Part shown: positions 1 to 12,332 of the stretch, one piece after another
Layout: each line of letters starts with the position of its first letter
Numbering within the stretch: position 1 is the first letter of the stretch
Source of the DNA: Lachnospiraceae bacterium
Lineage (GTDB): Bacteria > Bacillota > Clostridia > Lachnospirales > Lachnospiraceae
Assembly: GCA_016282745.1 (NCBI GenBank)
Contig: JAEELL010000052.1
Coordinates: 1-12,654, forward strand
Direction: 5' to 3'
Length of the DNA: 12,654 nucleotides
Notes under the pieces: generated by a model
Database searches by the model: none
What the model was told of the DNA's origin: nothing
The model's input: only the letters and a program-made list of their open reading frames with translations
Position numbers and translations under genes: made by a program

Positions 1-1049
1 TATAGAGGGTGGAAGTGCAGGAAGAAAGATTGGAATCCTTGATAGGGATGTATGCTTTGGAAATAAATTATGCACTTTCAATTCTAAAGAGATTGTTAAT
101 AGATATATTTATTACTATCTCCAAAGCTATGAGTTTAAGGCATTTTTTATGGATAATATGTCCGGAATTATTGGCGGCGTAAGTATAAAAAAACTTAAAG
201 AGCTTCCAATTCCGGTGCCTACTGTGCCTGAGCAAAAAGCAATAGTTGCCAAGATAGAGGAACTTCTACCTTATGTAGACCGCTATGCCGAGGCTTATGA
301 GAAGCTGGAACAGTTTAATGCCAAGTTCCCGGAGGATATGAAGAAGTCTATCCTTCAATATGCAATTGGTAGAGCAGAGAGCTGAAGAAGGAACGGCTGA
401 AGAACTGTATCAGCAGATTAAGAAAGAAAAGCATAAGCTAATACAGGAAGGAAAAACAAAGAAAGGAAAGCCTTTTGCGGAAATCTTGGGGGATGAGATA
501 CCATTTGATATTCCAGAGAGTTGGAAGTGGGTTAGATTGATTGATGTAGTAGTGGATAAACCTACAAATGGTTATTCGCCTAAAGGTGTTGATTATGTCA
601 CGAACTATAAGAACCTTACACTGACAGCAACTACCGCAGGATATTTTAAATATGATGCGTTTAAATATGTTGATATTTCAGGAGAAGAAGCAGAAAAATA
701 TTGGTTAAAGCATAATGACATATTAGTTCAGCGTAGCAATTCGAGAGAATTAGTAGGAACCAGTTGTATATATGACGGTAACGATGACAAATATATATAT
801 CCTGACCTGATGATGCGGTTTCACACCATGCCAAACATATGTGTACAGTATATTGATTATGTATTGAAGTCGCCCTTTGTAAGACAATATTATTCAAAAA
901 ATGCGACAGGAACTTCAGAAAGCATGCCTAAAATAAATCAGGCAATAGTTTCATCCACTTTAATTCCGTTGCCACCTTTGGCGGAGCAATATCGAATTAC
1001 TGCAAAGATCGAAGAACTTCTGCCTTATTGCGACAAACTGAATAAGTAG
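1..1049 (+). pseudogene. hsdS: Type I restriction-modification specificity subunit HsdS. The 5' end lies outside the window and the gene is interrupted by a frameshift in the central conserved region (ORF fragments 2..385 and 360..1049).
   Basis: Frame 2 is open from nt 2 and reads ...GNKLCTFNSKEIVNRYIYYYLQSYEFKAFFMDNMSGIIGGVSIKKLKELPIPVPTVPEQKAIVAKIEELLPYVDRYAEAYEKLEQF...SILQYAIGRAES*. After the stop at 383-385 the homology continues in frame 3 (QLVEQRAEEGTAEELYQQIKKEKHKLIQEGK..., a second target-recognition domain, then the distal conserved repeat LIPLPPLAEQYRITAKIEELLPYCDKLNK*). The two near-identical LP..P..EQ..I..KIEELLPY motifs are the hallmark conserved repeats of HsdS. The frame switch falls inside the conserved ...LQYAI(QGK)LVEQ... 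helix around nt 355-375. Confidence 0.8.
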
Positions 1050-1057
1050 TATTTATA

Positions 1058-1093
1058 CGGAGATGGGAACTTAGTCCATCTCCGCTATTTTTA
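1058..1093 (+). terminator. Rho-independent terminator downstream of hsdS
   Basis: Perfect 9-bp stem CGGAGATGG (1058-1066) / CCATCTCCG (1076-1084) with a 9-nt loop, followed by CTATTTTTAT. It starts 9 nt after the hsdS stop. Confidence 0.65.
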
Positions 1094-1290
1094 TGTATTT
1101 ATATACTGAAGCACGGGAACAATCCATAATACGAGCCATCTCAGATATATTGATATTGCCTGTCTTATACATCTGATAATATTTCCAGAACTATTTTTTA
1201 AATTCAAAATATTATGATACATATAGGTTGCATTAAGTATGTCAAAAAGCAATAGCGAAAATCGGTGGAAGTGCTCGATTTTTCGGTATT

Positions 1291-1392
1291 TGAAAAAAAG
1301 TAAAAAATAATGGACTTTTTGAAAATCCACTTCAAATGCCCGAAAATACTGATAAAGTACATTTTATAAAAAGTGTACTTTATTTTTATTAT
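1291..1392. repeat. Left copy of a ~100-bp direct repeat (partner at 9664-9766, about 93% identical). Contains a palindrome AAAGTACA-N12-TGTACTTT.
   Basis: Direct alignment: tgaaaaaaagtaaaaaataatggactttttgaaaatccacttcaaatgcccgaaaatactgataaagtacattttataaaaagtgtactttatttttatt versus the 9664-9766 copy. There is one single-base indel, two mismatches (tcc/cac) and three changes in the palindrome spacer. It embeds TTCAAA(1331-1336)-16nt-TAAAGT(1353-1358) and an inverted repeat AAAGTACA (1354-1361) / TGTACTTT (1374-1381) followed by a T-run. Confidence 0.85.
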
Positions 1393-1609
1393 AGTCAAAT
1401 AAATAACCATAAATAAAGTTCATTTTTAATGCTTGCCAAATGATAAATGATAGAATAATAAAGTAAAATTATAAATTCTAAATATCCATATATATTTTTC
1501 CCAATTTCGAAATAAAATATGATAGAATTATCTTATAAATTAATGATCGGATAAAGCAATAAATTTATACAACTTTCAAACATTCGTCTCTAGGATAGGA
1601 GGAATGCTT

Positions 1610-3520
1610 ATGACTATATATAAATGTAAAATGTGCGGTGGGAATCTAGAAATAAAAGATGGTGATTTAACATGTACATGCGAGTATTGTGGAACTAAAC
1701 AAACCTTGCCCAAACTCACCTCTGAAATAAAAGCCAATCTTTACGACCGAGCAAATCATTTTCGTAGAAATAATGATTTTGACAAAGCCATGAGTATCTA
1801 TGAAAAAATTCTAAACGAGGATAAGACCGATGCAGAAGCATATTGGTCTTTGGTTTTATGTCTTTACGGAATCGAGTACGTCAAAGATCCTCAAACAGGT
1901 AAAATGATTCCAACTATTAACAGAACTCAGTACACATCTATCTATTCTGACGAAAACTACAAATCAGCAATTCATTACGCAGATTCTATGCAGAAATCCA
2001 TATATAAAGAAGAAGCAAAAACTATAGATTCCATACAAAAGAACATTCTGGAGATTTCAAAAAAAGAAGAACCTTTCGACATTTTCATCTGCTATAAAGA
2101 AACTGATGATAGTGGAAGAAGAACTCCTGATTCCGTACTTGCAAATGACTTATATCATCAGTTAACAATCGAGGGTTACAAAGTATTTTTCTCTCGAATC
2201 ACATTAGAAGACAAACTGGGCACTGCTTATGAACCGTATATTTTTGCTGCTCTTAACAGTTCTAAAGTTATGGTTGTAATTGGCACAAAACCTGAATATT
2301 TCAACGCAGTATGGGTAAAAAACGAATGGAGCAGATATCTCACTTTAATCAAAAACGGGGAAGATAAAACTCTGATTCCTGCTTATCGTGATATGGACCC
2401 TTATGATTTACCTGAAGATTTCAGTCACCTTCAGGCACTTGATATGTCTAAACTTGGCTTTATGCAGGACTTAATCCGAGGCATCAAAAAAATTGTAACT
2501 CAGAATACTATTCCACAAAACGAAAAAGTAATTAACTCAAATACTGATTTACAACAACAATTGGAAATGCTCCAACAACAATTAAAACAACAACAGTTGC
2601 AATCCAACAGCAATATAACTGCGTTACTTCAACGTGGGAATATGGCTTTGGAAGATAAAGACTGGAAAAAATCTGATGATTTTTTTGAAGAAGTGTTAAA
2701 TCAGGATGCCCAATGTGCTGAGGCATATTTAGGAAAATTACTTGCAAAAAACACTTCCACAACTTTCGACGAATACATTGATAGCATCATAAATAAATAT
2801 GATAAACCAGAAACAAAAATGATTGAAGTTTGTAAACCAAATCAAAATCACATTGAAAAAATAGCAAATGAATATTATATTCCAAGCTATTATGAAAAGA
2901 AAGATATAATAGCTGAATACTATAAATTTGATAGAACTATTGAAATAATTGATATAAATTCCATTTTAAAAAATAAAGATGATGCAATTAATCATATTAA
3001 GCAAGATTCTTTATTTAAGAGAACACAACAGTATGCCAACAATAAAACTTTAGAAATAATAAATTCAGGATTAGCAAAAATAAACGAGCATTATGAACAA
3101 AATCGTGAAACAGCTGAAAAACACAATAAAAATGAAATTTTCAATCTAACTGATAAATATAATAAACATATAAAAGCAACTGATGAAATAATAAAGAAAA
3201 ATAAGGTGAAAGCAATAGAACTTATGGAGCAAAATTATCAAAGAGCTATTGAAATGTTTAATATTGCAAACTCATTATGGGATTACAACAGTGTAAAAAC
3301 AGAATTTATGAATCTAGCAGAATACAAGAATGCAACTGAATTCATACAAAAATGTAACGATTATATAGAAATGTATAAAAAAAATCAAGTATATTATGAT
3401 CTTGAAAAAGTAATAGCTTTTGAAAAAAGCAAGAGGAAACAAGATACAGTAGTTATTGCTATTTTTATAGTAGTCCCGATTATACTTATATTAGTCATAA
3501 TCATTATAAATAATTTCTAA
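1610..3520 (+). CDS. Large TIR-domain protein (paralog 1). Layout: N-terminal zinc ribbon, TPR-like helices, TIR domain (about nt 2072-2495), a second TPR-like segment, Q-rich coiled coil, long helical region and a C-terminal transmembrane anchor.
   Basis: AGGAGG at 1597-1602 is 7 nt before the ATG at 1610. The track ORF starts at 1604 in the same frame, only 1 nt after the SD. CxxC...CxxC motif: KCKMCGGNLEIKDGDLTCTCEYCGT. TIR motifs: FDIFICYKETDDSG (box 1), GYKVFFSRITLEDKLG, IFAALNSSKVMVVIGTKPEYFNAVWVKNEWSRYL with a conserved Glu in the WxxNEW position. TPR-like segments AEAYWSLVLCLYGIEYV and LLQRGNMALEDKDWKKSDDFFEEVLNQDAQCAEAYLG. C-terminus VVIAIFIVVPIILILVIIIINNF is a hydrophobic helix. 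About 55-60% identical to the 6131-8536 protein across the first ~300 aa. Confidence 0.8.
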   Translation: MTIYKCKMCGGNLEIKDGDLTCTCEYCGTKQTLPKLTSEIKANLYDRANHFRRNNDFDKAMSIYEKILNEDKTDAEAYWSLVLCLYGIEYVKDPQTGKMIPTINRTQYTSIYSDENYKSAIHYADSMQKSIYKEEAKTIDSIQKNILEISKKEEPFDIFICYKETDDSGRRTPDSVLANDLYHQLTIEGYKVFFSRITLEDKLGTAYEPYIFAALNSSKVMVVIGTKPEYFNAVWVKNEWSRYLTLIKNGEDKTLIPAYRDMDPYDLPEDFSHLQALDMSKLGFMQDLIRGIKKIVTQNTIPQNEKVINSNTDLQQQLEMLQQQLKQQQLQSNSNITALLQRGNMALEDKDWKKSDDFFEEVLNQDAQCAEAYLGKLLAKNTSTTFDEYIDSIINKYDKPETKMIEVCKPNQNHIEKIANEYYIPSYYEKKDIIAEYYKFDRTIEIIDINSILKNKDDAINHIKQDSLFKRTQQYANNKTLEIINSGLAKINEHYEQNRETAEKHNKNEIFNLTDKYNKHIKATDEIIKKNKVKAIELMEQNYQRAIEMFNIANSLWDYNSVKTEFMNLAEYKNATEFIQKCNDYIEMYKKNQVYYDLEKVIAFEKSKRKQDTVVIAIFIVVPIILILVIIIINNF

Positions 3521-3599
3521 TATTATTATTTTTTTATTGTTCTACATATCAGAATAAATATATATGATAAATTAGTATTATGGAAAACGGTCGGATAAT

Positions 3600-3626
3600 T
3601 TGACAAAATACAACTACATTTAATAT
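3600..3626 (+). promoter_or_regulatory. Candidate sigma-A type promoter upstream of the 3686-9530 gene string
   Basis: TTGACA (3600-3605), 15-nt spacer, TAATAT (3621-3626). Perfect -35, acceptable -10, short spacer. Sits in the AT-rich gap after the first TIR gene. Confidence 0.3.
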
Positions 3627-3685
3627 CGTCTCTATACCCGGATTCAAATGAATTAATATACAAATGTAATGAACAAATAAGAATA

Positions 3686-3940
3686 ATGACTGAAAATGAA
3701 AAGAAATCCAAAACAAAAAAGAAAAAATTATTTATAAGTGCAATTACATTTTTATTATCATTCTCAATAATAATATATATCTATATTCCATTAAGATTAC
3801 TACAAGATAACTATAATAAATCAGTTAAACAATTAAATTCTATATCTGCTGGTTCATATCATACAGTTGCACTTAAATCTGATAGTACCGTTGTAGCTGT
3901 TGGTGATAATGAAGATAACCAATGTAGCATATCGGATTGA
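3686..3940 (+). pseudogene. Remnant ORF: N-terminal signal-anchor/TM segment plus a single RCC1-type blade. Probably a decayed fragment of an RCC1 propeller like the one in the 6131-8536 protein.
   Basis: ...SISAGSYHTVALKSDSTVVAVGDNEDNQCSISD* is near-identical in pattern to one blade of the downstream paralog (SRNHTIGLKSDSTVVSTGFNEYGQCAVSDWSGI). The ORF stops at TGA exactly where the paralog has TGG (the Trp of ...SDW). Similarity to the paralog ends after that point. No convincing SD precedes the ATG at 3686. Confidence 0.45.
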
Positions 3941-3994
3941 GAAAATATCGAATTTCCCAAAATGAAATAATTAAACAGAAGGAGGTACACAACC

Positions 3995-5404
3995 ATGTTA
4001 ATAAACAAAGGAAAAGATGATGAAATGATTAGCGTAATAAAACATGAGGGAAACAATGATGTATTCATTTGGAAACATCCAATTGAAGATTTCAATTATG
4101 GAACTCAATTAATAGTACACGAGAGTCAGGAAGCTATATTCTTTAGAGACGGACAGGCCTTGGACTTATTTGGTCCGGGACGTTATACACTTGAAAACCA
4201 GCAGTTACCACTTCTTCAAAATGCATACAATATTCCTTCAAACTCTGCTGATGCATTCCATTCGGAAGTTTATTTCATTAACAAAACTGTACAAATGTCC
4301 ATTAAATGGGGAACTCCTGACAAAGTGCGTTTTATTGATCCACTCAGTAATACGCCACTTGAACTTGGAGCATCAGGAACTATGAACTTACAAGTTCATA
4401 ATTCTAGAAAATTGCTAGTAAAATTAGTAGGAACAACATCCGGCATTGCATGGGACGATAGTAGCCAATACGCTAAGTCATTGCAAGAATCTTTCAGACC
4501 AATGATTGCAAATGCAGTAAAATCAAATCTTCCTGCGATTATTAAAAATGAATCAATTGATTTGTTAGAGATTGATGAAAAGTTAGATTTAATTTCAAAT
4601 GATTTGAAATTAAAGGTTAATCCTGAATTTGAGGAGTACGGTCTTACTATTCCACAGTTCTACGTAACCAATATCGTATTACCTGAAAACGACCCTAATT
4701 TCAAGAGAATAAGAGAACTACATACCATATCGCTCCAAACCAGAATGATTCAGGCTGAGGCAACAGTAAAATATGCACAGGCTGAAAGTGAAGCTAAGTA
4801 TAAAGCTGCGCAAGAGCAAAGTAAAGCAACTATTGAAGCAGCACATCGAGAAGCTGAATTACAAAGGCAATTAACAGAAACCGAGATTGCAAAACGTGAA
4901 GCTGAACGAAGAATTATTGCTTCACAGGCTGAAGCCCAAGCTGCAAAGTTGCAAGGCTTAGCAGAAGCAGAAGTAATGCGTGCTAAAGGTTATTCAGAAA
5001 AAGATGTTATTCAGGCTGAAGTTCAAAAAGCTTATGCCGAAGGTATTGGTAATATGGGACCTTCCATTTCCGGTGGTGGAGGAGGAAGTATTGTTGGTGA
5101 TGTTTTGGGACTGGGTGTTGGAATTGCAGCTGCAGGAAATATTGCCCCTCAAGTTTCAGAAATGATAAAAGGAATATCACCAAATAATAATTCAACTAAT
5201 ACCATTCCTACTCAACCACAGATAAACTTTGACACATGGCAATGTAGCTGTGGAAATGCAAATGCAACAGGAAATTTCTGCAACATGTGCGGAGTAAAGA
5301 AACCTGAGCAAAATATAATATCTGATGCTTGGGATTGCAGTTGTGGTAACACGGGTATTATCGGCAACTTCTGTAACATGTGCGGCAAAAAGAGAGGAGA
5401 ATAA
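3995..5404 (+). CDS. SPFH/Band-7 family protein (YdjI-like, Band_7_1 type). Central Ala/Glu-rich coiled coil, Gly-rich linker and two tandem C-terminal zinc ribbons.
   Basis: GAAGGAGG (3976-3983) upstream of the ATG at 3995. N-terminal region VFIWKHPIEDFNYGTQLIVHESQEAIFFRDGQALDLFGPGRYTLENQQLPLL... resembles the B. subtilis YdjI family (COG4260, 'putative virion core protein'). AEATVKYAQAESEAKYKAAQEQSKATIEAAHREAELQRQ...AEAQAAKLQGLAEAEVMRAKG is the typical SPFH/flotillin coiled coil. Two 24-aa repeats at the C-terminus: WQCSCGNANATGNFCNMCGVKKPE and WDCSCGNTGIIGNFCNMCGKKRGE (CxC..CxxC zinc ribbons). Confidence 0.75.
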   Translation: MLINKGKDDEMISVIKHEGNNDVFIWKHPIEDFNYGTQLIVHESQEAIFFRDGQALDLFGPGRYTLENQQLPLLQNAYNIPSNSADAFHSEVYFINKTVQMSIKWGTPDKVRFIDPLSNTPLELGASGTMNLQVHNSRKLLVKLVGTTSGIAWDDSSQYAKSLQESFRPMIANAVKSNLPAIIKNESIDLLEIDEKLDLISNDLKLKVNPEFEEYGLTIPQFYVTNIVLPENDPNFKRIRELHTISLQTRMIQAEATVKYAQAESEAKYKAAQEQSKATIEAAHREAELQRQLTETEIAKREAERRIIASQAEAQAAKLQGLAEAEVMRAKGYSEKDVIQAEVQKAYAEGIGNMGPSISGGGGGSIVGDVLGLGVGIAAAGNIAPQVSEMIKGISPNNNSTNTIPTQPQINFDTWQCSCGNANATGNFCNMCGVKKPEQNIISDAWDCSCGNTGIIGNFCNMCGKKRGE

Positions 5405-5407
5405 ACT

Positions 5408-6100
5408 ATGAGTAAAAACGAAATAAGAACTTATGTTGTTTTATGTATTATATTTATTGCATTTTCTTCAATTGCATTTGCTGCTCCATTTGATAAAAAT
5501 ACAGTCTTTGGGGTTGCCTATCTGTTTGGTGTATTATCAATTTTAGTACAAATTTATGTTTACAAAGTGGCATACATTGAAAAAGGTAATGCAAGAAGTG
5601 CATTCTACGGACTTCCGATAATCAATATTGGTCTAACATATATAACTGTGCAGATCATAGTTAGTATTATTGAAATGATAATAGCGAAAGAGATTCCTTT
5701 ATGGCCTGTAATTATCGCAAACGTAATTATTCTAGCAATAGCATCTGTTGGTTGTATTGCAGCCGAAACAGTAAGAGATGAGATTGTCCGACAGGACACC
5801 AATGATATACAAAACAAAGTCCAGATCATGAGAGAACTCCAATCCATTTCAGGTTCTCTTGTAACTCTGTGCACAGATGATAATCTGAAAAAAGAGATCC
5901 AAAAACTAGCTGATGAATTTCGATACAGTGATCCAGTTTCAAGTGAGCAAACCTCTGATCTTGAAAACCAGCTAAAATCAAAATTGAATGAACTTCAAAA
6001 ATTAATAAGCGCAGGCAACTTTGATAATTCAAAAGGGCTGTGTGCTGATATTCTATCAACATTAACTGAAAGAAACAGAATCTGTAAGAATAGCAAATAG
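5408..6100 (+). CDS. Integral membrane protein (about 4 TM helices) with a C-terminal cytoplasmic coiled-coil tail. Probably translationally coupled to the SPFH gene.
   Basis: SD AGAGAGGAG at 5391-5399. Start lies 3 nt after the SPFH stop. Four hydrophobic stretches (VVLCIIFIAFSSIAFA, FGVAYLFGVLSILVQIYVY, LPIINIGLTYITVQIIVSIIEMII, WPVIIANVIILAIASVGCIAA), then a charged helical tail ...KEIQKLADEFRYSD...LENQLKSKLNELQKLI. No family recognised from sequence. Confidence 0.75.
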   Translation: MSKNEIRTYVVLCIIFIAFSSIAFAAPFDKNTVFGVAYLFGVLSILVQIYVYKVAYIEKGNARSAFYGLPIINIGLTYITVQIIVSIIEMIIAKEIPLWPVIIANVIILAIASVGCIAAETVRDEIVRQDTNDIQNKVQIMRELQSISGSLVTLCTDDNLKKEIQKLADEFRYSDPVSSEQTSDLENQLKSKLNELQKLISAGNFDNSKGLCADILSTLTERNRICKNSK

Positions 6101-6130
6101 TTTATTAATAATTGAAGGGCGGATGAGCGT

Positions 6131-8536
6131 ATGGCAATACTTAAATGTAAAATGTGCGGTGGTGAATTACACTTTGAACCTGATTCAACCATCTGTGAAT
6201 GTGAATACTGTGGTACTAAACAAACAATCCCCAAAATCGATAACGAAAAGAAAATGACGCTCTACGAGCGAGCAAACAGACTTCGCTTCAATTGTGAGTT
6301 TGATAAAGCTGCAAGCGTATACGAGAATATTATTGCTGATTTTCACGAAGAAGCAGAAGCATACTGGGGATTAGTATTGTGCAAGTACGGAATCGAATAT
6401 GTCGATGATCCTGTAACAGCAAAAAAGATTCCGACATGTCACAGATCTTCCTTTGACAGTCTGGCTGACGATGCTGACTTTGAAATGGTTATGGAATATT
6501 CTGATTCGACAAGCAGAAAAGTATATCGTGAAGAAGCAAAAACAATTGAAAATATTAGGAAAAGCATTATTGAAATTTCAGGAAAAGAATCTCCTTACGA
6601 TATTTTTATCTGTTACAAAGAGACTGATGAAAACGGTGAGAGAACTATTGATAGTGTTATGGCTCAGGATATCTATGAGCAACTGGCATCGAAAGGTTAC
6701 CGCGTATTTTTTTCCAGAATATCTTTAGAGGACAAAGTAGGAGTAGAGTATGAGCCATATATCTTTGCTGCATTGCAATCGGCCAAAATAATGCTGGCAA
6801 TTGGCACTGATTATGACTATTTTAACGCTGTCTGGGTAAAAAATGAGTGGAGCCGCTTCTTAAAATTAATGGTTCACGATAAATCTAAGTATCTGATTCC
6901 ATGTTTCAAAAATATTGATGCTTTTGATATTCCAAAAGAATTTGCACGGCTTCAGGCTCAAGACCTCGGAAAAGTTGGTGCAATTCAAGATTTACTTCGT
7001 GGAATCGACAAACTTATTAAGCCGAACTCTTCAATAACAGAAAACAATGATACCATAAAAGAGACAATCCCTATAGTTGTCCATGAAGGCAAGAATTCTG
7101 ACGCTTTACTTAAGCGTGGAAAGATGGCATTAGAAGATAAAGATTGGATAAATGCCGAAAAATACTTTGATCAAGTATTAGATATGAATGCAGAGTGTGG
7201 AGAAGCATATTGGGGATTAGCTCTGGCAACAGCACAGTGTTCTGACAATGAAGAATTTTCGAAATTATATTCAAATGGTTTAGAGGAACTCAAAAAAAAT
7301 TTTCAAATTTTCACAAAATTTGAAAATAATTATAAAAGAGCAATTCAATTTGGAGGCAAAGAATTCTCTGATCTTATTAACAGACTTGAAGATTATAAGT
7401 TAGAGCAATTAGAATATGAGAAGACAATCCGATTGGAATTAGAATATTTGAGGGAAGATAGATTAAAATACTCAATATTATGTAATCAAATTATTACATC
7501 AAAAGGAAATATAACTTTGGCGCTAAAAAGTGATGGAAAACTATTAATCAGTGGAATGGCTTCATCAAATCAATATTCTAATTTGTTAACTTGGAAAGAT
7601 ATTATTATGATTTCAACAAGCAGAAATCATACAATAGGCTTAAAATCTGATAGCACTGTCGTTTCTACCGGATTTAATGAGTACGGACAGTGTGCTGTTT
7701 CTGATTGGTCAGGTATTATTCAAATTGCTTGTGGTGATAATTTCACAATAGGATTAAAAAACAATGGAACAGTTGTTTCCACCGGCAACAATCAATATGG
7801 ACAATGTAATATTTCTAATTGGTCTGATATCATTCAAATCGCTTGTGGTGATTATTTCACATTAGGATTAAAAAAAGACGGCATGGTCGTTTCTACAGGT
7901 TCAAACAAACATGGACCATGTAATGTTTCTAATTGGTCTGGCATCATTTATATTGCTTGTGGAGCTGATTTTTCATTAGGACTAAGAAGCGATGGAACTG
8001 TTGTCTCTACAGGTTACAACGAATCTGGGCAATGCAATGTTTCTGGTTGGCATGACATTATTTCTATTGCTTGTGGACTTGATCATGCAGTTGCAATTAA
8101 AGAAGATGGCAAATTAATCGCTACCGGCTCAAATATGAAGAAACAATGTAATGTCACCGATTGGTCTGATATTGTTTTTATTGCATGTAATGATACTAAT
8201 ACTATTGGCATCAAAAAAAATGGATTATTAATATCAACATCCAATGCCCCTAAATCATATAATTTTGTTGCTTATTATCAACATAAACAAAGTCTCTTTG
8301 GAAATATCGAAAACTTTAATAATTGCAAATTATTTAATAATATTTTAACTCTTGAAGTGGAAAGAAAAAAGGCTTTTAGCGATAGATTAAAGCATTTAAG
8401 AACCGAAAAAGAAAAACTCGAAAATAAATTGACTAATTTGCATGGTATTTTTTCATTTAGTAATCGTAAAATATTAGAAGAACAATTAGATGAAGTTGAA
8501 GATGAAATAAAAGTATTGAGTAACAGTAATCTATAA
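6131..8536 (+). CDS. Large TIR-domain protein (paralog 2). Layout: zinc ribbon, TPR-like helices, TIR domain (about nt 6593-7016), a second TPR-like segment, coiled coil, a 7-bladed RCC1-type beta-propeller (about nt 7493-8246) and a C-terminal coiled coil.
   Basis: N-terminus MAILKCKMCGGELHFEPDSTICECEYCGTKQTIP matches paralog 1. TIR motifs: YDIFICYKETDENG, GYRVFFSRISLEDKVG, IFAALQSAKIMLAIGTDYDYFNAVWVKNEWSRFL. Seven ~36-40-aa repeats of the form HTIGLKSDSTVVSTGFNEYGQCAVSDWSGIIQIACGDNF / TIGLKNNGTVVSTGNNQYGQCNISNWSDIIQIACGDYF / ... (RCC1/ATS1-like blade pattern). Ends with a charged heptad-like tail ...DRLKHLRTEKEKLENKLTNL...EEQLDEVEDEIKVL. Confidence 0.85.
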   Translation: MAILKCKMCGGELHFEPDSTICECEYCGTKQTIPKIDNEKKMTLYERANRLRFNCEFDKAASVYENIIADFHEEAEAYWGLVLCKYGIEYVDDPVTAKKIPTCHRSSFDSLADDADFEMVMEYSDSTSRKVYREEAKTIENIRKSIIEISGKESPYDIFICYKETDENGERTIDSVMAQDIYEQLASKGYRVFFSRISLEDKVGVEYEPYIFAALQSAKIMLAIGTDYDYFNAVWVKNEWSRFLKLMVHDKSKYLIPCFKNIDAFDIPKEFARLQAQDLGKVGAIQDLLRGIDKLIKPNSSITENNDTIKETIPIVVHEGKNSDALLKRGKMALEDKDWINAEKYFDQVLDMNAECGEAYWGLALATAQCSDNEEFSKLYSNGLEELKKNFQIFTKFENNYKRAIQFGGKEFSDLINRLEDYKLEQLEYEKTIRLELEYLREDRLKYSILCNQIITSKGNITLALKSDGKLLISGMASSNQYSNLLTWKDIIMISTSRNHTIGLKSDSTVVSTGFNEYGQCAVSDWSGIIQIACGDNFTIGLKNNGTVVSTGNNQYGQCNISNWSDIIQIACGDYFTLGLKKDGMVVSTGSNKHGPCNVSNWSGIIYIACGADFSLGLRSDGTVVSTGYNESGQCNVSGWHDIISIACGLDHAVAIKEDGKLIATGSNMKKQCNVTDWSDIVFIACNDTNTIGIKKNGLLISTSNAPKSYNFVAYYQHKQSLFGNIENFNNCKLFNNILTLEVERKKAFSDRLKHLRTEKEKLENKLTNLHGIFSFSNRKILEEQLDEVEDEIKVLSNSNL
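7493..8246 (+). repeat. Intragenic tandem DNA repeats (period about 114-120 bp, 7 units) encoding the RCC1-like blades
   Basis: Recurrent nucleotide blocks such as tggtctgatatcattcaaatcgcttgtggtgat...acagttgtttccaccggc...caatatggacaatgtaat repeat across the 3' part of the gene. Confidence 0.6.
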
Positions 8537-8552
8537 AAAATAGGAGAATTAT

Positions 8553-9530
8553 ATGGATATAAATATTAACAGCACTAAAAAACCACAAGTTTTATTATTA
8601 GGAAATGGATTGCTACAAGCATTTGGCGATACAGTTTCGTGGTCAGATTTAGTTAAACAAATGCATATAAATAGCAATGTAGACAAAGATCTATTATTTG
8701 CTAACATTCCTTTTCCTCTAGAAATAGTAATTAGAACAAACGATAACGTAGATACACAAATAAAAGATATAACTATATCTGACAATAATACATTTGCCAA
8801 CAAATCCGTCACTCCTGAATTATATAAACGCTTAGAGAAACTGATTGACTGTGGTTTTGATCATATTCTAACAACAAATTATGGATATGAAATAGAAGCA
8901 GTTGCAATTGGCAAAAATAGCATTAACGATTATTCTTTAACAAAAGGAAAAGATCATACTGATATTGTTAAAAGAGCTGAAAATAAATTCTATCTACATA
9001 CATATTACACATTCAACAACACAAATATATGGCACATTCATGGAGAAGGCAAAAATCCTAACAGTATTATCTTAGGACATTATTATTATGGAAATTTACT
9101 TACAAAATATAAAAAATATCTTGATTCTGTTGGATACAAATATGAATATCGTCAGCAACACAAACAACCACAAATAATAAATAGTTGGATTGACGCTTTC
9201 ATTTTAGGCGACATATATATTTTAGGCTTAAGTATGGATTTTTCAGAGTTAGATTTATGGTGGCTAATCAACAGAAAAAAGAGAGAAAAAGCAAATACAG
9301 GAAATATTTATTTCTTTGAACCAAATGATTGCAACACCTTTAATACAAAAATCGAATTATTAAAATGTTACAATGTCACAGTTGAGAATTGTAATATTTC
9401 ATTGATAAGAAATGATGATAATACAGAAAAGCCCGAATTGAATGTTAAGGAAAAAAATAATGAATTGTATAGACTGTTTTATGACGCGGCAATAGATAAT
9501 ATAATAAATAGGCAAAAAAATTATTTATGA
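8553..9530 (+). CDS. SIR2-like (SIR2_2 / ThsA-type) domain protein. It is a stand-alone SIR2 domain of about 325 aa with no SLOG or Macro domain.
   Basis: SD AGGAG at 8541-8545 is 7 nt before the ATG. Motif order matches ThsA/DSR-type SIR2: QVLLLGNGLLQAFGDTVSWSDLVKQM (Rossmann G-x-G loop, GNG variant), DHILTTNYGYEIE (TTNY(D) catalytic-Asn motif), NIWHIHGE (His motif), DIYILGLSMDFSELDLWWLI (GxSxxD motif), with ThsA-like spacing. Confidence 0.75.
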   Translation: MDININSTKKPQVLLLGNGLLQAFGDTVSWSDLVKQMHINSNVDKDLLFANIPFPLEIVIRTNDNVDTQIKDITISDNNTFANKSVTPELYKRLEKLIDCGFDHILTTNYGYEIEAVAIGKNSINDYSLTKGKDHTDIVKRAENKFYLHTYYTFNNTNIWHIHGEGKNPNSIILGHYYYGNLLTKYKKYLDSVGYKYEYRQQHKQPQIINSWIDAFILGDIYILGLSMDFSELDLWWLINRKKREKANTGNIYFFEPNDCNTFNTKIELLKCYNVTVENCNISLIRNDDNTEKPELNVKEKNNELYRLFYDAAIDNIINRQKNYL

Positions 9531-9560: not shown

Positions 9561-9587
9561 CAAGTACAGAATCCTGTACGTTTTTTA
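9561..9587 (+). terminator. Probable rho-independent terminator after the SIR2-like gene
   Basis: Stem GTACAG (9564-9569) / CTGTAC (9574-9579), loop AATC, then TTTTTT (9581-9586). The stem is short and AT-rich, so only moderate confidence. Confidence 0.45.
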
Positions 9588-9663
9588 GCAAATAAAGTAC
9601 ATTTTTTCAAAATTCTAGTTTTTACTTTTCGATATGGAAATAGTAGAATAAAGTACATTTTTC

Positions 9664-9766
9664 TGAAAAAAAAGTAAAAAATAATGGACTTTTTGAAAAC
9701 ACACTTCAAATGCCCGAAAATACTGATAAAGTACATTTTTTCAAAAGTGTACTTTATTTTTTTATC
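9664..9766. repeat. Right copy of the ~100-bp direct repeat (partner at 1291-1392). Additional AAAGTACATTTTT half-sites lie just upstream at 9593 and 9650.
   Basis: tgaaaaaaaagtaaaaaataatggactttttgaaaacacacttcaaatgcccgaaaatactgataaagtacattttttcaaaagtgtactttattttttta. The same TTCAAA(9705-9710)-16nt-TAAAGT(9727-9732) and palindrome AAAGTACA(9728-9735)-N12-TGTACTTT(9748-9755) as the left copy. Confidence 0.85.
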
Positions 9767-9858
9767 ATCATAATTACTATAAATAATAAAGTCTATTTTC
9801 ATTATCCCAATACGCTGAAAAACATTTCAAAATAAAGTCAATTATCTTTATAATATAA

Positions 9859-9888: not shown

Positions 9889-10036
9889 AAAACCAATAAT
9901 AGCATGCACGGATATAAAAAAACTAAATAACAATTTTTATCTATTTTAGATATATTGTCTAAATAATCCAGTTAATTACATAGACCCAAATGAAAAAATA
10001 GCAATTGCACTTCCTTTATTTACACTGGAAGTTGTT

Positions 10037-10197
10037 GTGGTTTGTTTACTCTTGGCGTTGGCAGTTGTAGTATCAATTGCAATATTGTCAGATCCTGATG
10101 TTCAATATTCCATAAGAAATGTTATTAGAACAGTTGGTGCCAAGATAAAGGGAAAAATAGGAGATTTTATTATAGAAGTAGGTCGAGCGCTTACATA
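10037..10197 (+). CDS. Possible small hydrophobic/amphipathic peptide (about 53 aa, GTG start). Speculative.
   Basis: Frame opens after TAA at 9959-9961. GGAAG (10026-10030) is 6 nt before GTG 10037. Translation VVCLLLALAVVVSIAILSDPDVQYSIRNVIRTVGAKIKGKIGDFIIEVGRALT*, i.e. one TM-like helix plus a cationic amphipathic tail. Lies about 150 nt downstream of the strong promoter. There is no ATG start and it is below the ORF-track length cut-off. Confidence 0.2.
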
Positions 10198-10261
10198 AGC
10201 ACAGGCAAAAAAGAAAAATAATACGTATGAAAGACATCACATAGTAGCGCGAAATGAGCCT

Positions 10262-10489
10262 TTGGCAAAGAAATCTGAAAGGTTGATTAACCGTGTCGGT
10301 ATTTTTGTCAATGATTCTATTAATTTAGTGTATATTAAATATAATTTGCATAAACATATTCATACAAATTTATATCATGATATAGTATATGAATTGCTGT
10401 TATTAGGAAAGAATTCATATAAAAAGACATATGAAATATTGGGGTATATGAAAAATGTATTAAGAGCAGCTAGTGATGCAACACCATAG
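10262..10489 (+). CDS. Hypothetical small protein (75 aa, TTG start in track). Weakly supported.
   Basis: ORF with non-ATG start and no clear SD. Its stop (10487-10489) overlaps the AGGAGG of the next gene, so coupling is possible. No recognisable domain. Confidence 0.3.
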   Translation: MAKKSERLINRVGIFVNDSINLVYIKYNLHKHIHTNLYHDIVYELLLLGKNSYKKTYEILGYMKNVLRAASDATP

Positions 10490-10499
10490 GAGGATAAAA

Positions 10500-11084
10500 A
10501 TGGAATGTTTTAAATACTTATATAATCAATTTGTAGAAGCGATCAATTCTTGGAATGTAGATAAGATACGTGCAGTTTCTGTAATGGTATATTCAAACGA
10601 ATGTTACGTTTACAGAGGAGTTAAAAATTTTTTTGAGGTTTCTATCGGATATATTCCGTGTTTTGGTGATTCTGATGTATTAGACACTGATGCACTTATA
10701 GATCGAGAAGAAGTAAGTGTAGTGGTTGATCCTTATGAAAAAGAAGATATTGGAGCCGCAAAAGTTTGGGATTGGTTACACAGTATTAAAGTTGAAAATA
10801 TTGGATTTGAAGATGAAACTCAGATGTATGATGATGATTTAAATTATATAGGAAAAGGACCAAATGGATATTTTGAATTGTTGATGCTTGTTTCAGATGT
10901 AATGCGTGAGATACAGTCTAATGGAATTGTCAGTCAGAGATTTGATAAAACACCAGTGATTGTCCATGAGTTAAATTCTGCTTGGTATATAGAAGGTGCT
11001 ACTAGAAATGCAAATCCTAATGGAGAAGCGGACGAGTTTTTGGATTATCTAACAAATTTCTTTCAATATTGTAAAGAATTATAA
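10500..11084 (+). CDS. Hypothetical acidic cytoplasmic protein (about 194 aa)
   Basis: Perfect AGGAGG (10488-10493) is 6 nt before ATG 10500. The track ORF begins at 10473 in the same frame, but 10500 has the SD. Rich in D/E (…DSDVLDTDALIDREEVSVVVDPYEKEDIG…DETQMYDDDLNY…). No family recognised. Confidence 0.7.
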   Translation: MECFKYLYNQFVEAINSWNVDKIRAVSVMVYSNECYVYRGVKNFFEVSIGYIPCFGDSDVLDTDALIDREEVSVVVDPYEKEDIGAAKVWDWLHSIKVENIGFEDETQMYDDDLNYIGKGPNGYFELLMLVSDVMREIQSNGIVSQRFDKTPVIVHELNSAWYIEGATRNANPNGEADEFLDYLTNFFQYCKEL

Positions 11085-11184: not shown

Positions 11185-11222
11185 GAGTTGTAAAGTAAAT
11201 TTGGGAATTATCAATTTAGAGA
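11185..11222 (+). promoter_or_regulatory. 38-bp module AGTTGTAAAGTAAATTTGGGAATTATCAATTTAGAGAG, copy 1. Promoter-like -35/-10 plus SD, immediately before an ORF start.
   Basis: Identical 38-mer also at 12295-12332. Contains TTGTAA ... TATCAAT and ends in AGAGAG 2-6 nt before ATG 11226/11229. Confidence 0.5.
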
Positions 11223-11225
11223 GTA

Positions 11226-11524: not shown

Positions 11525-12295
11525 ATGCAAAAATCAAAAGACATTTTTAAAATTATTTTTATTATACTAGCGTCCACTATTTTCGTTCTGATAGTCGGGT
11601 TGATTATTCTCATATTCATTTCTAAAAATGAGTACAAAAATACTTCCAAAGCATTAGAAGAAAATTATTATATTTATGAAGACAGTAATACCAATACTTG
11701 TATAGTGAAATGTAAAAATTTAATGTATGAGATTAATGGACATATGTATAAGCGGAAAGCACCGTATGTATATTTTATTGTCGACAACGAAATTTCTGAA
11801 AACCAACTATCAATTTTACATAACCATAACCACGGAAACTATTATATTTCCCCCCACAATGAGGATGAGAAAGATATTGCGGTTTCGGTATATGCGAGAC
11901 CAAATATCAATCAATTAACATTAGCACTGCGCAACAAAAAAACATCTTGGCCAATGAAAGAGAAATCGATAACTCTTAACAAAGCCAATGAATTTGTTGT
12001 TGAAATGCTGCTAAAAAACAAAATTAAATTCAAATATAATGATACTTCTTTAATATTTTTCTCTGAAAATGAATACAAAGTAGATTTGAAAGATGGAGCC
12101 AATGTAAATACTTATGACGTCATCGTAAAAGAACAAGAGGATGCTGCTCAAATATTAATTAAAGATCATGAAGCTGATATTTTAACCGGACAAATATATT
12201 TAAGCGGTTATGATTTCATTCTTGAAGCTGGCAAAAATAGTTTGGGAATTCCAAAAGGTGAAAAGTTGAAGTTTGACACTTTAGATTACGAATAG
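11525..12295 (+). CDS. Hypothetical membrane-anchored protein (N-terminal TM helix, then about 220 aa non-cytoplasmic domain)
   Basis: AGGAGG (11514-11519) is 5 nt before ATG 11525. N-terminus KIIFIILASTIFVLIVGLIILIFI is hydrophobic. The rest is a polar domain with no recognisable family. Confidence 0.7.
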   Translation: MQKSKDIFKIIFIILASTIFVLIVGLIILIFISKNEYKNTSKALEENYYIYEDSNTNTCIVKCKNLMYEINGHMYKRKAPYVYFIVDNEISENQLSILHNHNHGNYYISPHNEDEKDIAVSVYARPNINQLTLALRNKKTSWPMKEKSITLNKANEFVVEMLLKNKIKFKYNDTSLIFFSENEYKVDLKDGANVNTYDVIVKEQEDAAQILIKDHEADILTGQIYLSGYDFILEAGKNSLGIPKGEKLKFDTLDYE

Positions 12296-12332
12296 TTGTA
12301 AAGTAAATTTGGGAATTATCAATTTAGAGAGG
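12295..12332 (+). promoter_or_regulatory. 38-bp module, copy 2 (identical to 11185-11222). It begins at the stop codon of the preceding gene and ends 5 nt before ATG 12338.
   Basis: Exact 38/38 identity with copy 1. AGAGAGG serves as the SD for ATG 12338. Confidence 0.5.

What the first reader, a model, noticed from the sequence alone, without database searches (positions are those of the whole stretch)
1291..1392. ~100-bp direct repeats (1291-1392 / 9664-9766) delimit the island and carry a promoter-like element overlapping a palindromic operator-like site; extra half-sites cluster near the right copy
Seen in sequence: the two copies are about 93% identical. Each contains TTCAAA-16nt-TAAAGT, whose -10-like hexamer overlaps the left arm of a perfect 8-bp inverted repeat AAAGTACA-N12-TGTACTTT followed by a T-run. 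Isolated ATAAAGTACATTTTT units recur at 9593 and 9650, with a degenerate one near 1424. Inference, with alternatives kept separate: (a) recombination scars or target duplication left by insertion of the 8.3-kb cassette, in which case a strain without the island should carry one copy; (b) a duplicated repressor-controlled promoter; (c) a duplicated bidirectional terminator or small structured RNA. There is no integrase or transposase in the window, which weakens a classical mobile-element reading.
Basis: partly seen in the sequence, partly recalled or inferred. Interest (0 to 1): 0.6.

Follow-up and report, generated by a model that had tools for sequence, protein, structure and literature searches.

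The report
Shared terminator module flanking defence cassette
The two ~95-base repeats around the defence island are real, but they are not insertion scars of this island: they are copies of a conserved non-coding block, built around a transcription-terminator hairpin, that sits between unrelated gene cassettes in variable islands of several Lachnospiraceae genomes.

Summary
Observation confirmed. Window 1293-1387 and 9667-9761 are direct repeats, 95 nt and 96% identical. Each carries TTCAAA-16-TAAAGT and the palindrome AAAGTACA-N12-TGTACTTT plus a T-run. The motif ATAAAGTNNATTTT occurs 6 times against 0.03 expected, only in the two intergenic regions.

The palindrome folds on the + strand as a 15-bp stem with a 4-nt loop and a U-run, which is the shape of an intrinsic terminator. 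All four differences between the two copies lie in hairpin loops.

The repeat (block "B") is one unit of a modular non-coding family (Z-A-B-C/C'-D). I found it in five other Clostridia assemblies, where pairs of copies flank unrelated cargo: an Mrr nuclease, DUF3592, and an unknown 425-aa protein. The left copy plus 80 nt (B-C') recurs upstream of the Mrr gene, and that homology stops just after an extended -10 box (TGATAGAAT). So B-C' looks like a portable terminator-plus-promoter unit.

Two contigs 99.9% identical to the right flank diverge exactly at the module's 3' end (9842-9846, shared TTATC). The left boundary (~1190) truncates a resolvase gene.

Best reading: neighbouring cassettes each carry this junction module, and its copies supply homology for cassette gain and loss. 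No recombinase, Rfam family, phage or plasmid match was found. Function is inferred, not shown. Moderately interesting.

The parts
1293..1387 (+). Left copy of block B (the 95-nt repeat)
   Evidence: 96% identical to the right copy. Covariance model R1 scores it 116.5 bits. It is 98.9% identical over 92 nt to a copy in Lachnospiraceae MAG SIG293 (L070).
9667..9761 (+). Right copy of block B
   Evidence: R1 scores it 118.9 bits.
1351..1387 (+). Terminator-like hairpin of the left copy: 15-bp stem GATAAAGTACATTTT / AAAGTGTACTTTATT, loop ATAA, then a T-run
   Evidence: -15 kcal/mol, z = -6.05, 0 of 200 shuffles fold as well. On the - strand the stem is interrupted.
9725..9763 (+). Terminator-like hairpin of the right copy: same stem, loop TTCA, then 7 T
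   Evidence: -13.8 kcal/mol, z = -5.72.
1318..1336 (+). Small hairpin hp1 (TTTGAA, 7-nt loop, TTCAAA). The right-copy equivalent is 9692-9710.
   Evidence: The stem is invariant and the loop varies among copies.
1331..1358 (+).
   Evidence: Read. Invariant in 8 copies. Function untested.
1388..1465 (+). Block C': ATAAAGTTCATTTT at 1413-1426 and an extended -10 TGATAGAAT at 1448-1456. Presumed promoter of the TIR-TPR cassette.
   Evidence: It is shared with the region upstream of an unrelated Mrr gene in L124, and the homology ends just after TAGAAT.
9574..9671 (+). Block A: two ATAAAGTACATTTT units (9592, 9648) and a promoter-like TTTACT-17-TAGAAT at 9621-9649
   Evidence: It is 99% identical to L025 (MAG RUI379). 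It also occurs without B in L025, L041, L053 and L124.
9762..9846 (+). Block C (first part only), with ATAAAGTCTATTTT at 9786 and ATAAAGTC at 9832. It ends at the junction TTATC, 9842-9846.
   Evidence: 81-90% identity to L053, L056, L070. Contigs L142 and L143 are 99.9% identical to the window from 9842 onward only.
9826..9854 (+). Promoter-like site TTCAAA-17-TATAAT that spans the junction: the -35 comes from block C and the -10 from the right-flank sequence
   Evidence: 10 of 12 matches, the best in the region; for the junction.
1074..1190 (-). 39-aa relic of a serine-recombinase (resolvase) C-terminal HTH. It marks the left edge of the strain-variable segment.
   Evidence: HTH_7, 27.8 bits. 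The L125 homologue matches the end of the Resolvase domain. Homology to L125 stops at ~1186.
1058..1084 (+). The G+C-rich terminator of hsdS itself, upstream of the left repeat
   Evidence: -16 kcal/mol.
9564..9579 (+). Short terminator-like hairpin GTACAGAATCCTGTAC plus a T-run, after the SIR2-like gene
1604..9530 (+). Cargo between the copies: TIR-TPR, RCC1 fragment, SPFH, unknown, TIR-TPR-RCC1, SIR2-like
   Evidence: There are no PADLOC matches apart from one marginal hit (PDC-S66, E 7e-4, 17 bits) for the TIR-TPR-RCC1 protein.

Best explanation
The 95-nt repeat is block B of a lineage-specific, modular, non-coding junction element (order Z-A-B-C or C'-D) found in rumen and gut Lachnospiraceae.

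The core of B is a + strand intrinsic terminator, preceded by a small hairpin. B is followed by a promoter-bearing block, C' on the left and C on the right. B plus C/C' therefore works as an insulator: it stops read-through from the gene upstream and restarts transcription for the cassette downstream.

Neighbouring cassettes in these variable defence and toxin islands each carry such a module. Any cassette therefore ends up bracketed by direct repeats of whichever blocks its two neighbouring modules share. In the window that shared part is B.

The copies also provide 85-380 nt of near-identical DNA at which homologous, recombinase-independent crossovers can add, delete or swap cassettes.

Shown:
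- the repeat and its motif enrichment;
- the hairpin thermodynamics;
- variation confined to loops;
- presence of the block in other genomes around unrelated cargo;
- coincidence of strain-variable breakpoints with module ends.

Inferred: termination, promoter activity, and recombination at the modules.
For: Structure:
- The hairpin has a 15-bp stem, a 4-nt loop and a U-run; z = -5.7 to -6.05.
- The T.G wobble is tolerated only in + strand RNA.
- Among 7 full copies, 6 of 12 loop columns vary against 6 of 78 other columns (Fisher p = 0.0009). All 4 differences between the two window copies lie in loops.
- The modules are co-oriented with the flanking genes in the window, L070, L053 and L124.

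Family:
- B or its neighbouring blocks occur in L070, L053, L056 (= L123), L025, L041 and L124 at 82-99% identity, with no other DNA shared with the window.
- Pairs of copies flank unrelated cargo: DUF3592 (315 nt, 99%, in L070), a 425-aa unknown protein and DUF6560 (L053), and an Mrr_cat-FtsK-gamma protein (L124).
- Elements lie at contig ends or break assemblies in L002, L053, L056 and L025.

Portable unit:
- B-C' is shared by the window's left copy and the L124 copy upstream of the Mrr gene. Homology ends right after TGATAGAAT.

Variable boundaries:
- L142 and L143 match the window at 99.9% from 9842 onward only, where block C ends, and share the 5 nt TTATC.
- Cassette swapping at short repeats demonstrably occurs 1.5 kb downstream, at the 38-nt repeat, in L145 and L147.

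No integrase or transposase is found among the main ORFs scanned around the modules in the loci held.
Against: - No transcript data exist.
- The hairpin pairs never vary, so there is no covariation.
- hsdS and the SIR2-like gene already have their own terminators, so a second terminator is not obviously needed.
- The unpaired linker ATGCCCGAAAATACTG is invariant in all copies. A plain terminator does not explain that.
- ATAAAGTWCA half-sites recur without a partner arm. In a wider Lachnospiraceae family their layout is conserved while the sequence between them is not. That points to a DNA-level ligand or to transposon ends.
- No empty site with a single B was found.
- Genome-wide copy number is unknown.
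Confidence: 0.55

Rival explanations
1. The palindrome and its scattered half-sites (ATAAAGTWCA) are DNA binding sites for an unidentified regulator or nucleoid-type protein. That protein would control the promoters of the island cassettes. The 95-nt repeat would then be a duplicated operator-promoter region, which is the first reader's option (b).
For: - The half-sites are strongly enriched and confined to the two intergenic regions.
- TTCAAA-16-TGATAAAGT is invariant in 8 copies.
- In a wider family from other Lachnospiraceae, six half-sites keep a fixed layout (offsets -51, 0, +22, +39, +60, +105), and one overlaps a perfect TATAAT. The ~40 nt between them is not conserved in L010 and L078.
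Against: - No candidate regulator is linked to the modules in any locus.
- The arms tolerate a T.G wobble, which fits RNA pairing rather than a symmetric DNA site.
- A U-run follows the hairpin.
- Single half-sites can equally be decayed hairpin arms: block A's first unit is 84% identical to B's hairpin (family D6).
Confidence: 0.2
2. B is a recombination site (att-, res- or attC-like) for a site-specific recombinase encoded elsewhere. The island would be a cassette inserted at, or excisable through, the two B copies.
For: - Direct repeats bracket cargo in four genomes.
- The palindrome has a 12-8-12 layout with a variable centre, like a recombinase core site, and has extra half-sites nearby.
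- A resolvase HTH relic lies ~100 nt from the left copy.
- In related loci, arrays of a second sharply bounded 37-nt hairpin (D) separate small cassettes.
Against: - The duplicated stretch differs in extent and in the blocks it covers at each locus: B only; gene end + Z + A + B; B + C + D; A only. A fixed crossover site would not give that.
- The strain-variable boundaries lie outside B.
- The resolvase relic also occurs in L125, which has no module. No recombinase lies near the other modules.
- The centres of the two window palindromes differ (ATAA against TTCA).
- There is no intI, and the attC core motifs are not met.
Confidence: 0.1
3. A plus B is a small RNA gene. The promoter would be TTTACT-17-TAGAAT in A, the transcript ~110 nt, ending at the B terminator. 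The left copy would be a promoterless duplicate.
For: - The -35 and -10 hexamers of A are invariant while its spacer varies among 6 copies.
- B has two hairpins whose loops vary and whose stems do not.
- A terminator sits at the right distance.
Against: - B occurs without A (window left copy, L056, L070b), and A occurs without B (L025, L041, L053, L124).
- There is no Rfam match, even at permissive thresholds.
- There is no covariation.
- No target complementarity was noticed in the repeat listing, but no dedicated target search was run.
Confidence: 0.12
4. The blocks are non-autonomous transposable elements (MITE-like, or hairpin-ended elements moved in trans), and their association with cassettes is incidental.
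For: - They are multi-copy and break assemblies.
- They are present in several species at up to 99% identity, while the flanking DNA is unrelated.
- In the wider family, the outer half-sites are inverted relative to each other, like terminal inverted repeats.
Against: - No terminal inverted repeats or target duplications can be defined for B in the window.
- Block boundaries differ between copies.
- No transposase is linked.
- All the copies held are clustered within variable islands and co-oriented with the genes, rather than scattered.
Confidence: 0.1
5. The repeats are a one-off duplication: a target-site duplication or scar made when this particular 8.3-kb island was inserted.
For: Two direct copies bracket the island.
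Against: - At 95 nt the repeat is far longer than any target duplication.
- The same block sits in other genomes next to unrelated genes.
- The left copy is more similar to a copy in another MAG (98.9%) than to the right copy (95.8%).
Confidence: 0.03

Closest known systems
[quoted passage not shown] 2011, PMC3049150)
   Same: Both are AT-rich intergenic repeats under 200 bp whose core is a long duplex followed by a U-rich tract. SPRITE lies close to the 3' ends of genes, is proposed to have been co-opted as a terminator, and has no linked transposase.
   Different: SPRITE has an 18-bp duplex and AAAA/TTTT ends. It has ~30 copies scattered over the pneumococcal genome and is reported as nearly absent outside S. 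pneumoniae and S. mitis. The present family is modular (Z-A-B-C-D), is found in Lachnospiraceae, and in all loci held is clustered at cassette junctions. Sequence relatedness could not be tested because the SPRITE logo is not available as text.
Correia repeat-enclosed elements (CREE) of Neisseria (PMC2649163)
   Same: Both are small intergenic repeats that can supply promoters and RNA-processing or terminator-like structures and so change the expression of adjacent genes (abstract).
   Different: CREE have defined inverted-repeat ends and a conserved core that binds IHF and RNase III (abstract); from my own knowledge they also make TA target duplications. None of these features is seen here.
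Minimal mobile elements of Neisseria (Saunders and Snyder 2002, as cited in PMC2649163)
   Same: In both, gene cassettes are exchanged horizontally at a fixed locus by homologous recombination, without any recombinase of their own.
   Different: In minimal mobile elements the homology comes from the conserved flanking genes. Here it would come from dedicated non-coding modules repeated inside the island.
Integron cassette arrays (attC sites)
   Same: Both have structured imperfect palindromes between co-located cassettes, and arrays with variable content between strains.
   Different: Here there is no integron integrase in any locus held, and the RYYYAAC/GTTRRRY core sites are not matched by B. 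The flanking repeats are 85-380 nt long and of variable extent. The cassettes have their own promoters and mixed orientation.

Membership tests
Intrinsic (Rho-independent) terminator | Stable stem-loop immediately followed by a U-tract on the transcribed strand | tested here: met
   15-bp stem, 4-nt loop, 5-7 U; -13.8 to -15 kcal/mol; z = -5.7 to -6.05. The tool's consensus scan missed it because it demands at least 3 G-C pairs.
Intrinsic (Rho-independent) terminator | Ends a transcript in vivo or in vitro | not testable with these tools
   No transcript data. The upstream genes have their own terminators.
Structured RNA (any Rfam family) | Match to a curated covariance model | tested here: not met
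   No hit at gathering score in the window or in 15 related loci. Only sub-threshold chance hits appear at E up to 5.
Structured RNA (new family) | Compensatory base changes that support the helices | tested here: inconclusive
   19 of 21 pairs are invariant and none changes on both sides. Variation is concentrated in the loops (p = 0.0009).
Integrase- or transposase-made att site or target duplication | Recombinase gene adjacent, and a repeat specific to the inserted element | tested here: not met
   There is no intact recombinase, only a 39-aa resolvase HTH relic. The repeat occurs around unrelated cargo elsewhere.
Integron attC site | Linked intI, RYYYAAC...GTTRRRY core sites, and fixed cassette boundaries | tested here: not met
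   No tyrosine recombinase in the window, L053, L056, L070 or L124. B lacks the core sites (read). The duplicated stretches differ in extent.
MITE | Terminal inverted repeats and a target-site duplication | tested here: not met
   No terminal inverted repeats at the ends of B or of A-B-C. No flanking duplication is visible where homology ends.
REP/SPRITE-type dispersed repeat | Many copies scattered over the intergenic regions of one genome | tested here: inconclusive
   There are 2-5 copies of individual blocks per island. The same species has at least two loci, judged by comparing the window with L025 of MAG RUI379. No other copy occurs in ~23 kb of the source contig.
Sigma-70-type promoter inside the repeat | -35 and -10 hexamers with 16-18 nt spacing, and a transcription start downstream | tested here: inconclusive
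   TTCAAA-16-TG-A-TAAAGT is present and invariant, but the hexamers coincide with hairpin arms. A start site is not testable.
Serine-recombinase res or crossover site | Cognate resolvase or invertase nearby, and dyad sites of fixed sequence used as the crossover | tested here: not met
   Only a truncated HTH relic is present. The same relic occurs in L125, which has no module. No resolvase lies near the modules of L053, L056, L070 or L124.

The most novel reading that the evidence does not exclude
The Z/A/B/C/D blocks could be the working parts of an undescribed cassette system of Lachnospiraceae, a group in which classical integrons are, to my knowledge, not reported. In this reading, structured junction elements are the sites at which defence and toxin cassettes are captured, insulated, expressed and exchanged. 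Those elements would be the terminator-like 12-8-12 palindromes and the sharply bounded 37-nt D hairpins, which form arrays with 251-967 nt spacing. The exchange would be carried out by an unlinked and so far unidentified recombinase or a single-strand mechanism.
Probability: 0.15. Interest if true: 0.75.

Novelty: new member of a known kind. Interest (0 to 1): 0.42.

Why it matters
If the reading holds, these blocks mark where variable defence and toxin cassettes sit in uncultured gut and rumen Lachnospiraceae. They would also explain how such islands can be rebuilt without an integrase: through shared non-coding homology that doubles as a terminator-promoter insulator.

Practical uses:
- The block sequences could serve as probes to find variable islands, and new defence genes, in fragmented metagenome assemblies.
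- They explain why assemblies break at these places.
- B-C' is a candidate compact insulated-promoter part for low-G+C Firmicutes.

This does not overturn any current view. Small terminator-like or promoter-bearing repeats, and recombinase-free cassette exchange, are already known in other phyla.

Tried and rejected
- **Genome-collection scan with the bare palindrome.** It was swamped by about 80 Streptococcus hits and by generic AT-rich terminators. The viral hits show that these arms can arise as ordinary bidirectional terminator stems. I therefore do not claim a cross-phylum protein site.
- **Metagenome scan with a specific B pattern.** Only 2 contigs were found, and the source contig was not among them.
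- **Viral contigs.** No hit for B or for D.
- **Plasmid and phage records.** No match to A-B-C.
- **Literature.** String searches for the motif returned only unrelated eukaryotic hits. Topic searches found no prior description.
- **Protein search with the spurious 93-aa ORF across A-B,** to fish out more copies: nothing.
- **Search for an empty site.** hsdM homologues and the P-type ATPase gave related loci without modules, or contigs that end before the region. No single-copy site was found.
- **Exact look-up of the SIR2-like protein.** It returned only the source contig.
- **Antiterminator idea.** In the wider family the upstream half-site can pair with the hairpin's 5' arm (12 bp, about -13 kcal/mol). 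In the window's B copies it does not, so I rejected it for this finding.
- **PADLOC.** No named defence system for the island proteins.

Full report
**1. Observation**

The window is part of a 31.5-kb JGI metagenome contig (3300041006, Ga0401708_2016387). The P-type ATPase downstream is 98% identical to that of a Lachnospiraceae MAG, RUI379.

The repeat finder reports a 95-nt direct repeat, 1293-1387 and 9667-9761, 96% identical.
- TTCAAA-16-TAAAGT, preceded by TG.
- The perfect inverted repeat AAAGTACA-N12-TGTACTTT.
- A T-run after the repeat.
- Extra ATAAAGTACATTTT units at 9592 and 9648, with degenerate ones at 1413 and 9786.

ATAAAGTNNATTTT occurs six times, always on the + strand and only in the two intergenic regions, against 0.03 expected.

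The genes between the copies are a TIR-TPR protein, an RCC1 fragment, an SPFH protein, an unknown protein, a TIR-TPR-RCC1 protein and a weakly SIR2-like protein. A type I hsdS gene lies upstream.

**2. The palindrome is a hairpin that reads best as a + strand terminator**

Folded as RNA, the + strand forms a continuous 15-bp stem (GAUAAAGUACAUUUU / AAAGUGUACUUUAUU) with a 4-nt loop. It is followed by 5 U in the left copy and 7 U in the right. Energies are -15 and -13.8 kcal/mol, with z-scores of -6.05 and -5.72. One pair is U.G, so the - strand stem is interrupted.

A second small hairpin lies upstream: UUUGAA, a 7-nt loop, UUCAAA.

All four differences between the two window copies fall in the loops of these two hairpins. 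Among seven full copies from five assemblies, 6 of 12 loop columns vary against 6 of 78 other columns (p = 0.0009). The pairs themselves never co-vary. The structure therefore rests on thermodynamics, the U-run, strand asymmetry and the loop-only variation, and not on covariation.

Rfam gives nothing.

**3. The repeat is one block of a modular family found in other genomes**

A scan of species-representative genomes with the palindrome, followed by BLAST of the whole intergenic regions, found the complete block B in five places:
- Lachnospiraceae MAG SIG293 (L070), two copies, up to 98.9% identical to the window's left copy.
- Eubacterium MAG RUI373 (L053).
- Eubacterium MAG Tb.RUG.99 (L056, which is the same contig as L123).
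- A metagenome contig (L124), two copies.

The adjoining block A (window 9574-9671) occurs in L025 (MAG RUI379, 99% identity), L041, L053 and L124. Nothing else in these loci resembles the window.

Alignments define this order:
- Z: a 20-bp-stem hairpin, ATAAAGTACATTTTCTCTCGGAAATGTACTTTAT (-20 kcal/mol).
- A.
- B.
- C, or an alternative block C'.
- D: a 37-nt hairpin. D is absent from the window.

Several of these elements sit at contig ends. A Logan contig carrying the same hsdS stops inside B, 4 nt before the first position at which the two window copies differ. That is the behaviour expected of a repeat that breaks assemblies.

**4. Pairs of copies flank unrelated cargo**

| Locus | Flanking repeat | Cargo between copies |
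|---|---|---|
| L070 | 315 nt, 99% identical, 1139 nt apart | DUF3592 gene |
| L053 | 91 nt, 100% identical | 425-aa unknown gene |
| L053 | Two A copies, 95% identical | DUF6560 gene |
| L124 | ~380 nt (3' end of a DUF4379 gene + Z + A + B), 1.9 kb apart | Mrr_cat-FtsK-gamma nuclease gene |
| Window | B, 95 nt, 96% identical | 8.3-kb island |

The extent of the duplication and the blocks it covers differ every time. This argues against one fixed crossover site. It fits arrays in which each cassette carries its own more or less complete module, or Campbell-type insertions by homologous recombination.

L025, L053 and L124 place such an array next to the same rluD-type pseudouridine synthase gene. 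The window's species therefore probably has at least two module-bearing loci.

**5. B-C' behaves as a portable terminator-plus-promoter**

Downstream of the left copy, similarity to the right copy drops to about 62%. However, 1388-1465 (C') is closely matched by the sequence that follows B upstream of the Mrr gene in L124. That homology runs through AATAAAGTTCATT...AATGCTTG...TGATAGAATAATAA and then stops. The stop comes just after an extended -10 box (TGATAGAAT, window 1448-1456). From there the two loci continue with cargo-specific leaders and ribosome-binding sites.

Block A carries TTTACT-17-TAGAAT. Its hexamers are invariant and its spacer varies among six copies.

These are consensus matches, not demonstrated promoters.

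**6. Boundaries of the strain-variable segment**

Right boundary. Contigs L142 (GCA_016295295.1) and L143 (SRR11783225) are 99.9% identical to the window from 9842 onward. Upstream of that point they carry the end of an M48-peptidase-like gene and no module. The switch falls on TTATC (9842-9846), which both sequences share, exactly where homology to block C of the other MAGs ends (9846). The right-hand A-B-C therefore belongs to the variable segment and not to the conserved flank. A -35 from C and a -10 from the flank form the best promoter-like site of the region (9826-9854).

Left boundary. Homology to a related hsdMS locus (L125) ends at ~1186. Window 1074-1190 on the - strand encodes the last 39 residues, the HTH_7 domain, of a serine recombinase whose remainder is missing. 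The L125 homologue retains the end of the Resolvase domain.

Both B copies thus lie about 80-100 nt inside a segment whose outer joints look illegitimate: one is a gene truncation and the other a 5-nt microhomology. No contig with a single-copy "empty" site was found.

**7. A wider family, and what it does and does not say**

Several other Lachnospiraceae hold a more distant relative of B. They include Lachnoclostridium phytofermentans L076, Anaerosporobacter L010, Cuneatibacter L078, L019, L064, L119 and L120. R1 scores those that were detected at 26-40 bits.

In these relatives, half-sites ATAAAGTWCA keep a fixed layout (offsets -51, 0, +22, +39, +60, +105), and one overlaps a perfect TATAAT. 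The ~40 nt between the first and second site is unrelated in L010 and L078. That pattern favours DNA-level sites or transposon-like ends over a conserved RNA body. It is the main reason my confidence in the pure terminator/insulator reading stays moderate.

In those relatives the upstream half-site can pair with the hairpin's 5' arm, giving a possible antiterminator. This is not so in the window's B.

The many Streptococcus hits share only the hairpin, and viral hits with the same arms are ordinary bidirectional terminators. The arms alone are therefore not evidence of common descent.

**8. Comparison with known systems**

The closest kinds are small dispersed repeats with regulatory structures:
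- SPRITE of the pneumococcus, which is terminator-like and AT-rich and has no transposase (PMC3049150).
- Correia elements of Neisseria, which act as promoters and are RNase III targets (PMC2649163).

Also close is recombinase-free cassette exchange, as in the neisserial minimal mobile elements.

The element is not an integron attC site, a MITE in the strict sense, an att site of an integrase, or any Rfam family. The membership table gives the tests.

No description of this family was found in the paper library.

**9. Verdict**

- Option (b) remains open.

The finding is a new, lineage-specific member of the class of regulatory intergenic repeats. What makes it notable is its modularity and its consistent position at the joints of defence and toxin cassettes. 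Termination, promoter activity and recombination at the modules are inferences that need transcript mapping, complete genomes and read-level junction searches.

Noticed in passing
window 11186-11223 and 12294-12331: A perfect 38-nt direct repeat (AGTTGTAAAGTAAATTTGGGAATTATCAATTTAGAGAG) brackets the 92-aa and 256-aa genes. In contigs L145 and L147 the flanks are 99.4-99.6% identical, but the stretch between is replaced by two other genes (166 and 156 aa). That is a cassette swap at this repeat.
   Followed up: partly
window 9944-11084: 9944-10489 is 99% identical to the 3' end of a 1609-aa RHS/AHH toxin gene in L146, where the 194-aa ORF (window 10500-11084) follows the toxin directly. The window therefore holds an orphan toxin tip plus its presumed immunity gene.
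   Followed up: partly
window 1074-1190 (- strand): A 39-aa relic of a serine recombinase: an intact resolvase HTH_7 domain with the catalytic part missing. It is convergent with hsdS and shares its terminator. A homologous, frameshifted fragment sits at the same place in L125.
   Followed up: yes
window 1604-3520, 3686-3940, 6131-8536, 7631-8200: The island is internally duplicated. Two TIR-TPR genes are offset by 4521 nt (~73% nt identity in N-terminal parts). An 84-aa RCC1 fragment lies after the first, which suggests that gene lost its repeat domain. There are also 114-nt tandem RCC1 repeats.
   Followed up: no
L124 4229-6711; L070 3952-3987 and 5091-5126; L053 5360-6427: A sharply bounded 37-nt imperfect palindrome (CTTGAATGATACACCAAAAATAGTGCATCGTTCAAC) ends the full modules. 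In L124 it forms an array of 5 copies, 251-967 nt apart, separating small ORFs in both orientations (an ADP-ribosyltransferase toxin, YjcQ and others). The arrangement is attC- or REP-like, with no recombinase in sight. It is absent from the window and from viral contigs.
   Followed up: partly
L067 3061-3159 and 5929-6027 (Streptococcus nidrosiense), and ~80 other Streptococcus loci: 99-nt direct repeats, 87% identical and 2868 nt apart, each end in ATAAAGTACAYT-N8-AGTGTACTTTAT plus a T-run. They bracket a 340-aa gene and a HEPN_LA2681/TPR gene downstream of a ClC channel gene. The arms are the same as in the window's hairpin. Whether this is homology or convergence is unresolved.
   Followed up: partly
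L126 3937-7025; L127 5020-10906: C-terminal hsdM fragments homologous to the one just upstream of the window are directly preceded by serine recombinase genes (three large ones in L127). Nearly all hsdM homologues in the protein collection are truncated at contig ends. This suggests that the R-M locus is itself part of, or a target of, a mobile element.
   Followed up: no
L064 2440-2620, L076 5686-5866, L119, L120, L019, L010, L078: A conserved ~170-nt non-coding element of other Lachnospiraceae has six ATAAAGTWCA half-sites in a fixed layout, two tandem terminator-like palindromes, and an upstream half-site identical to the hairpin's 3' arm. That gives a possible terminator/antiterminator switch (12 bp, about -13 kcal/mol). 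It matches no Rfam family.
   Followed up: partly
window 360-1049 and L001 737-1477: Two consecutive half-size hsdS ORFs (246 and 229 aa) overlap by 26 nt instead of forming one full-length specificity gene. This may be a split or rearranged hsdS.
   Followed up: no
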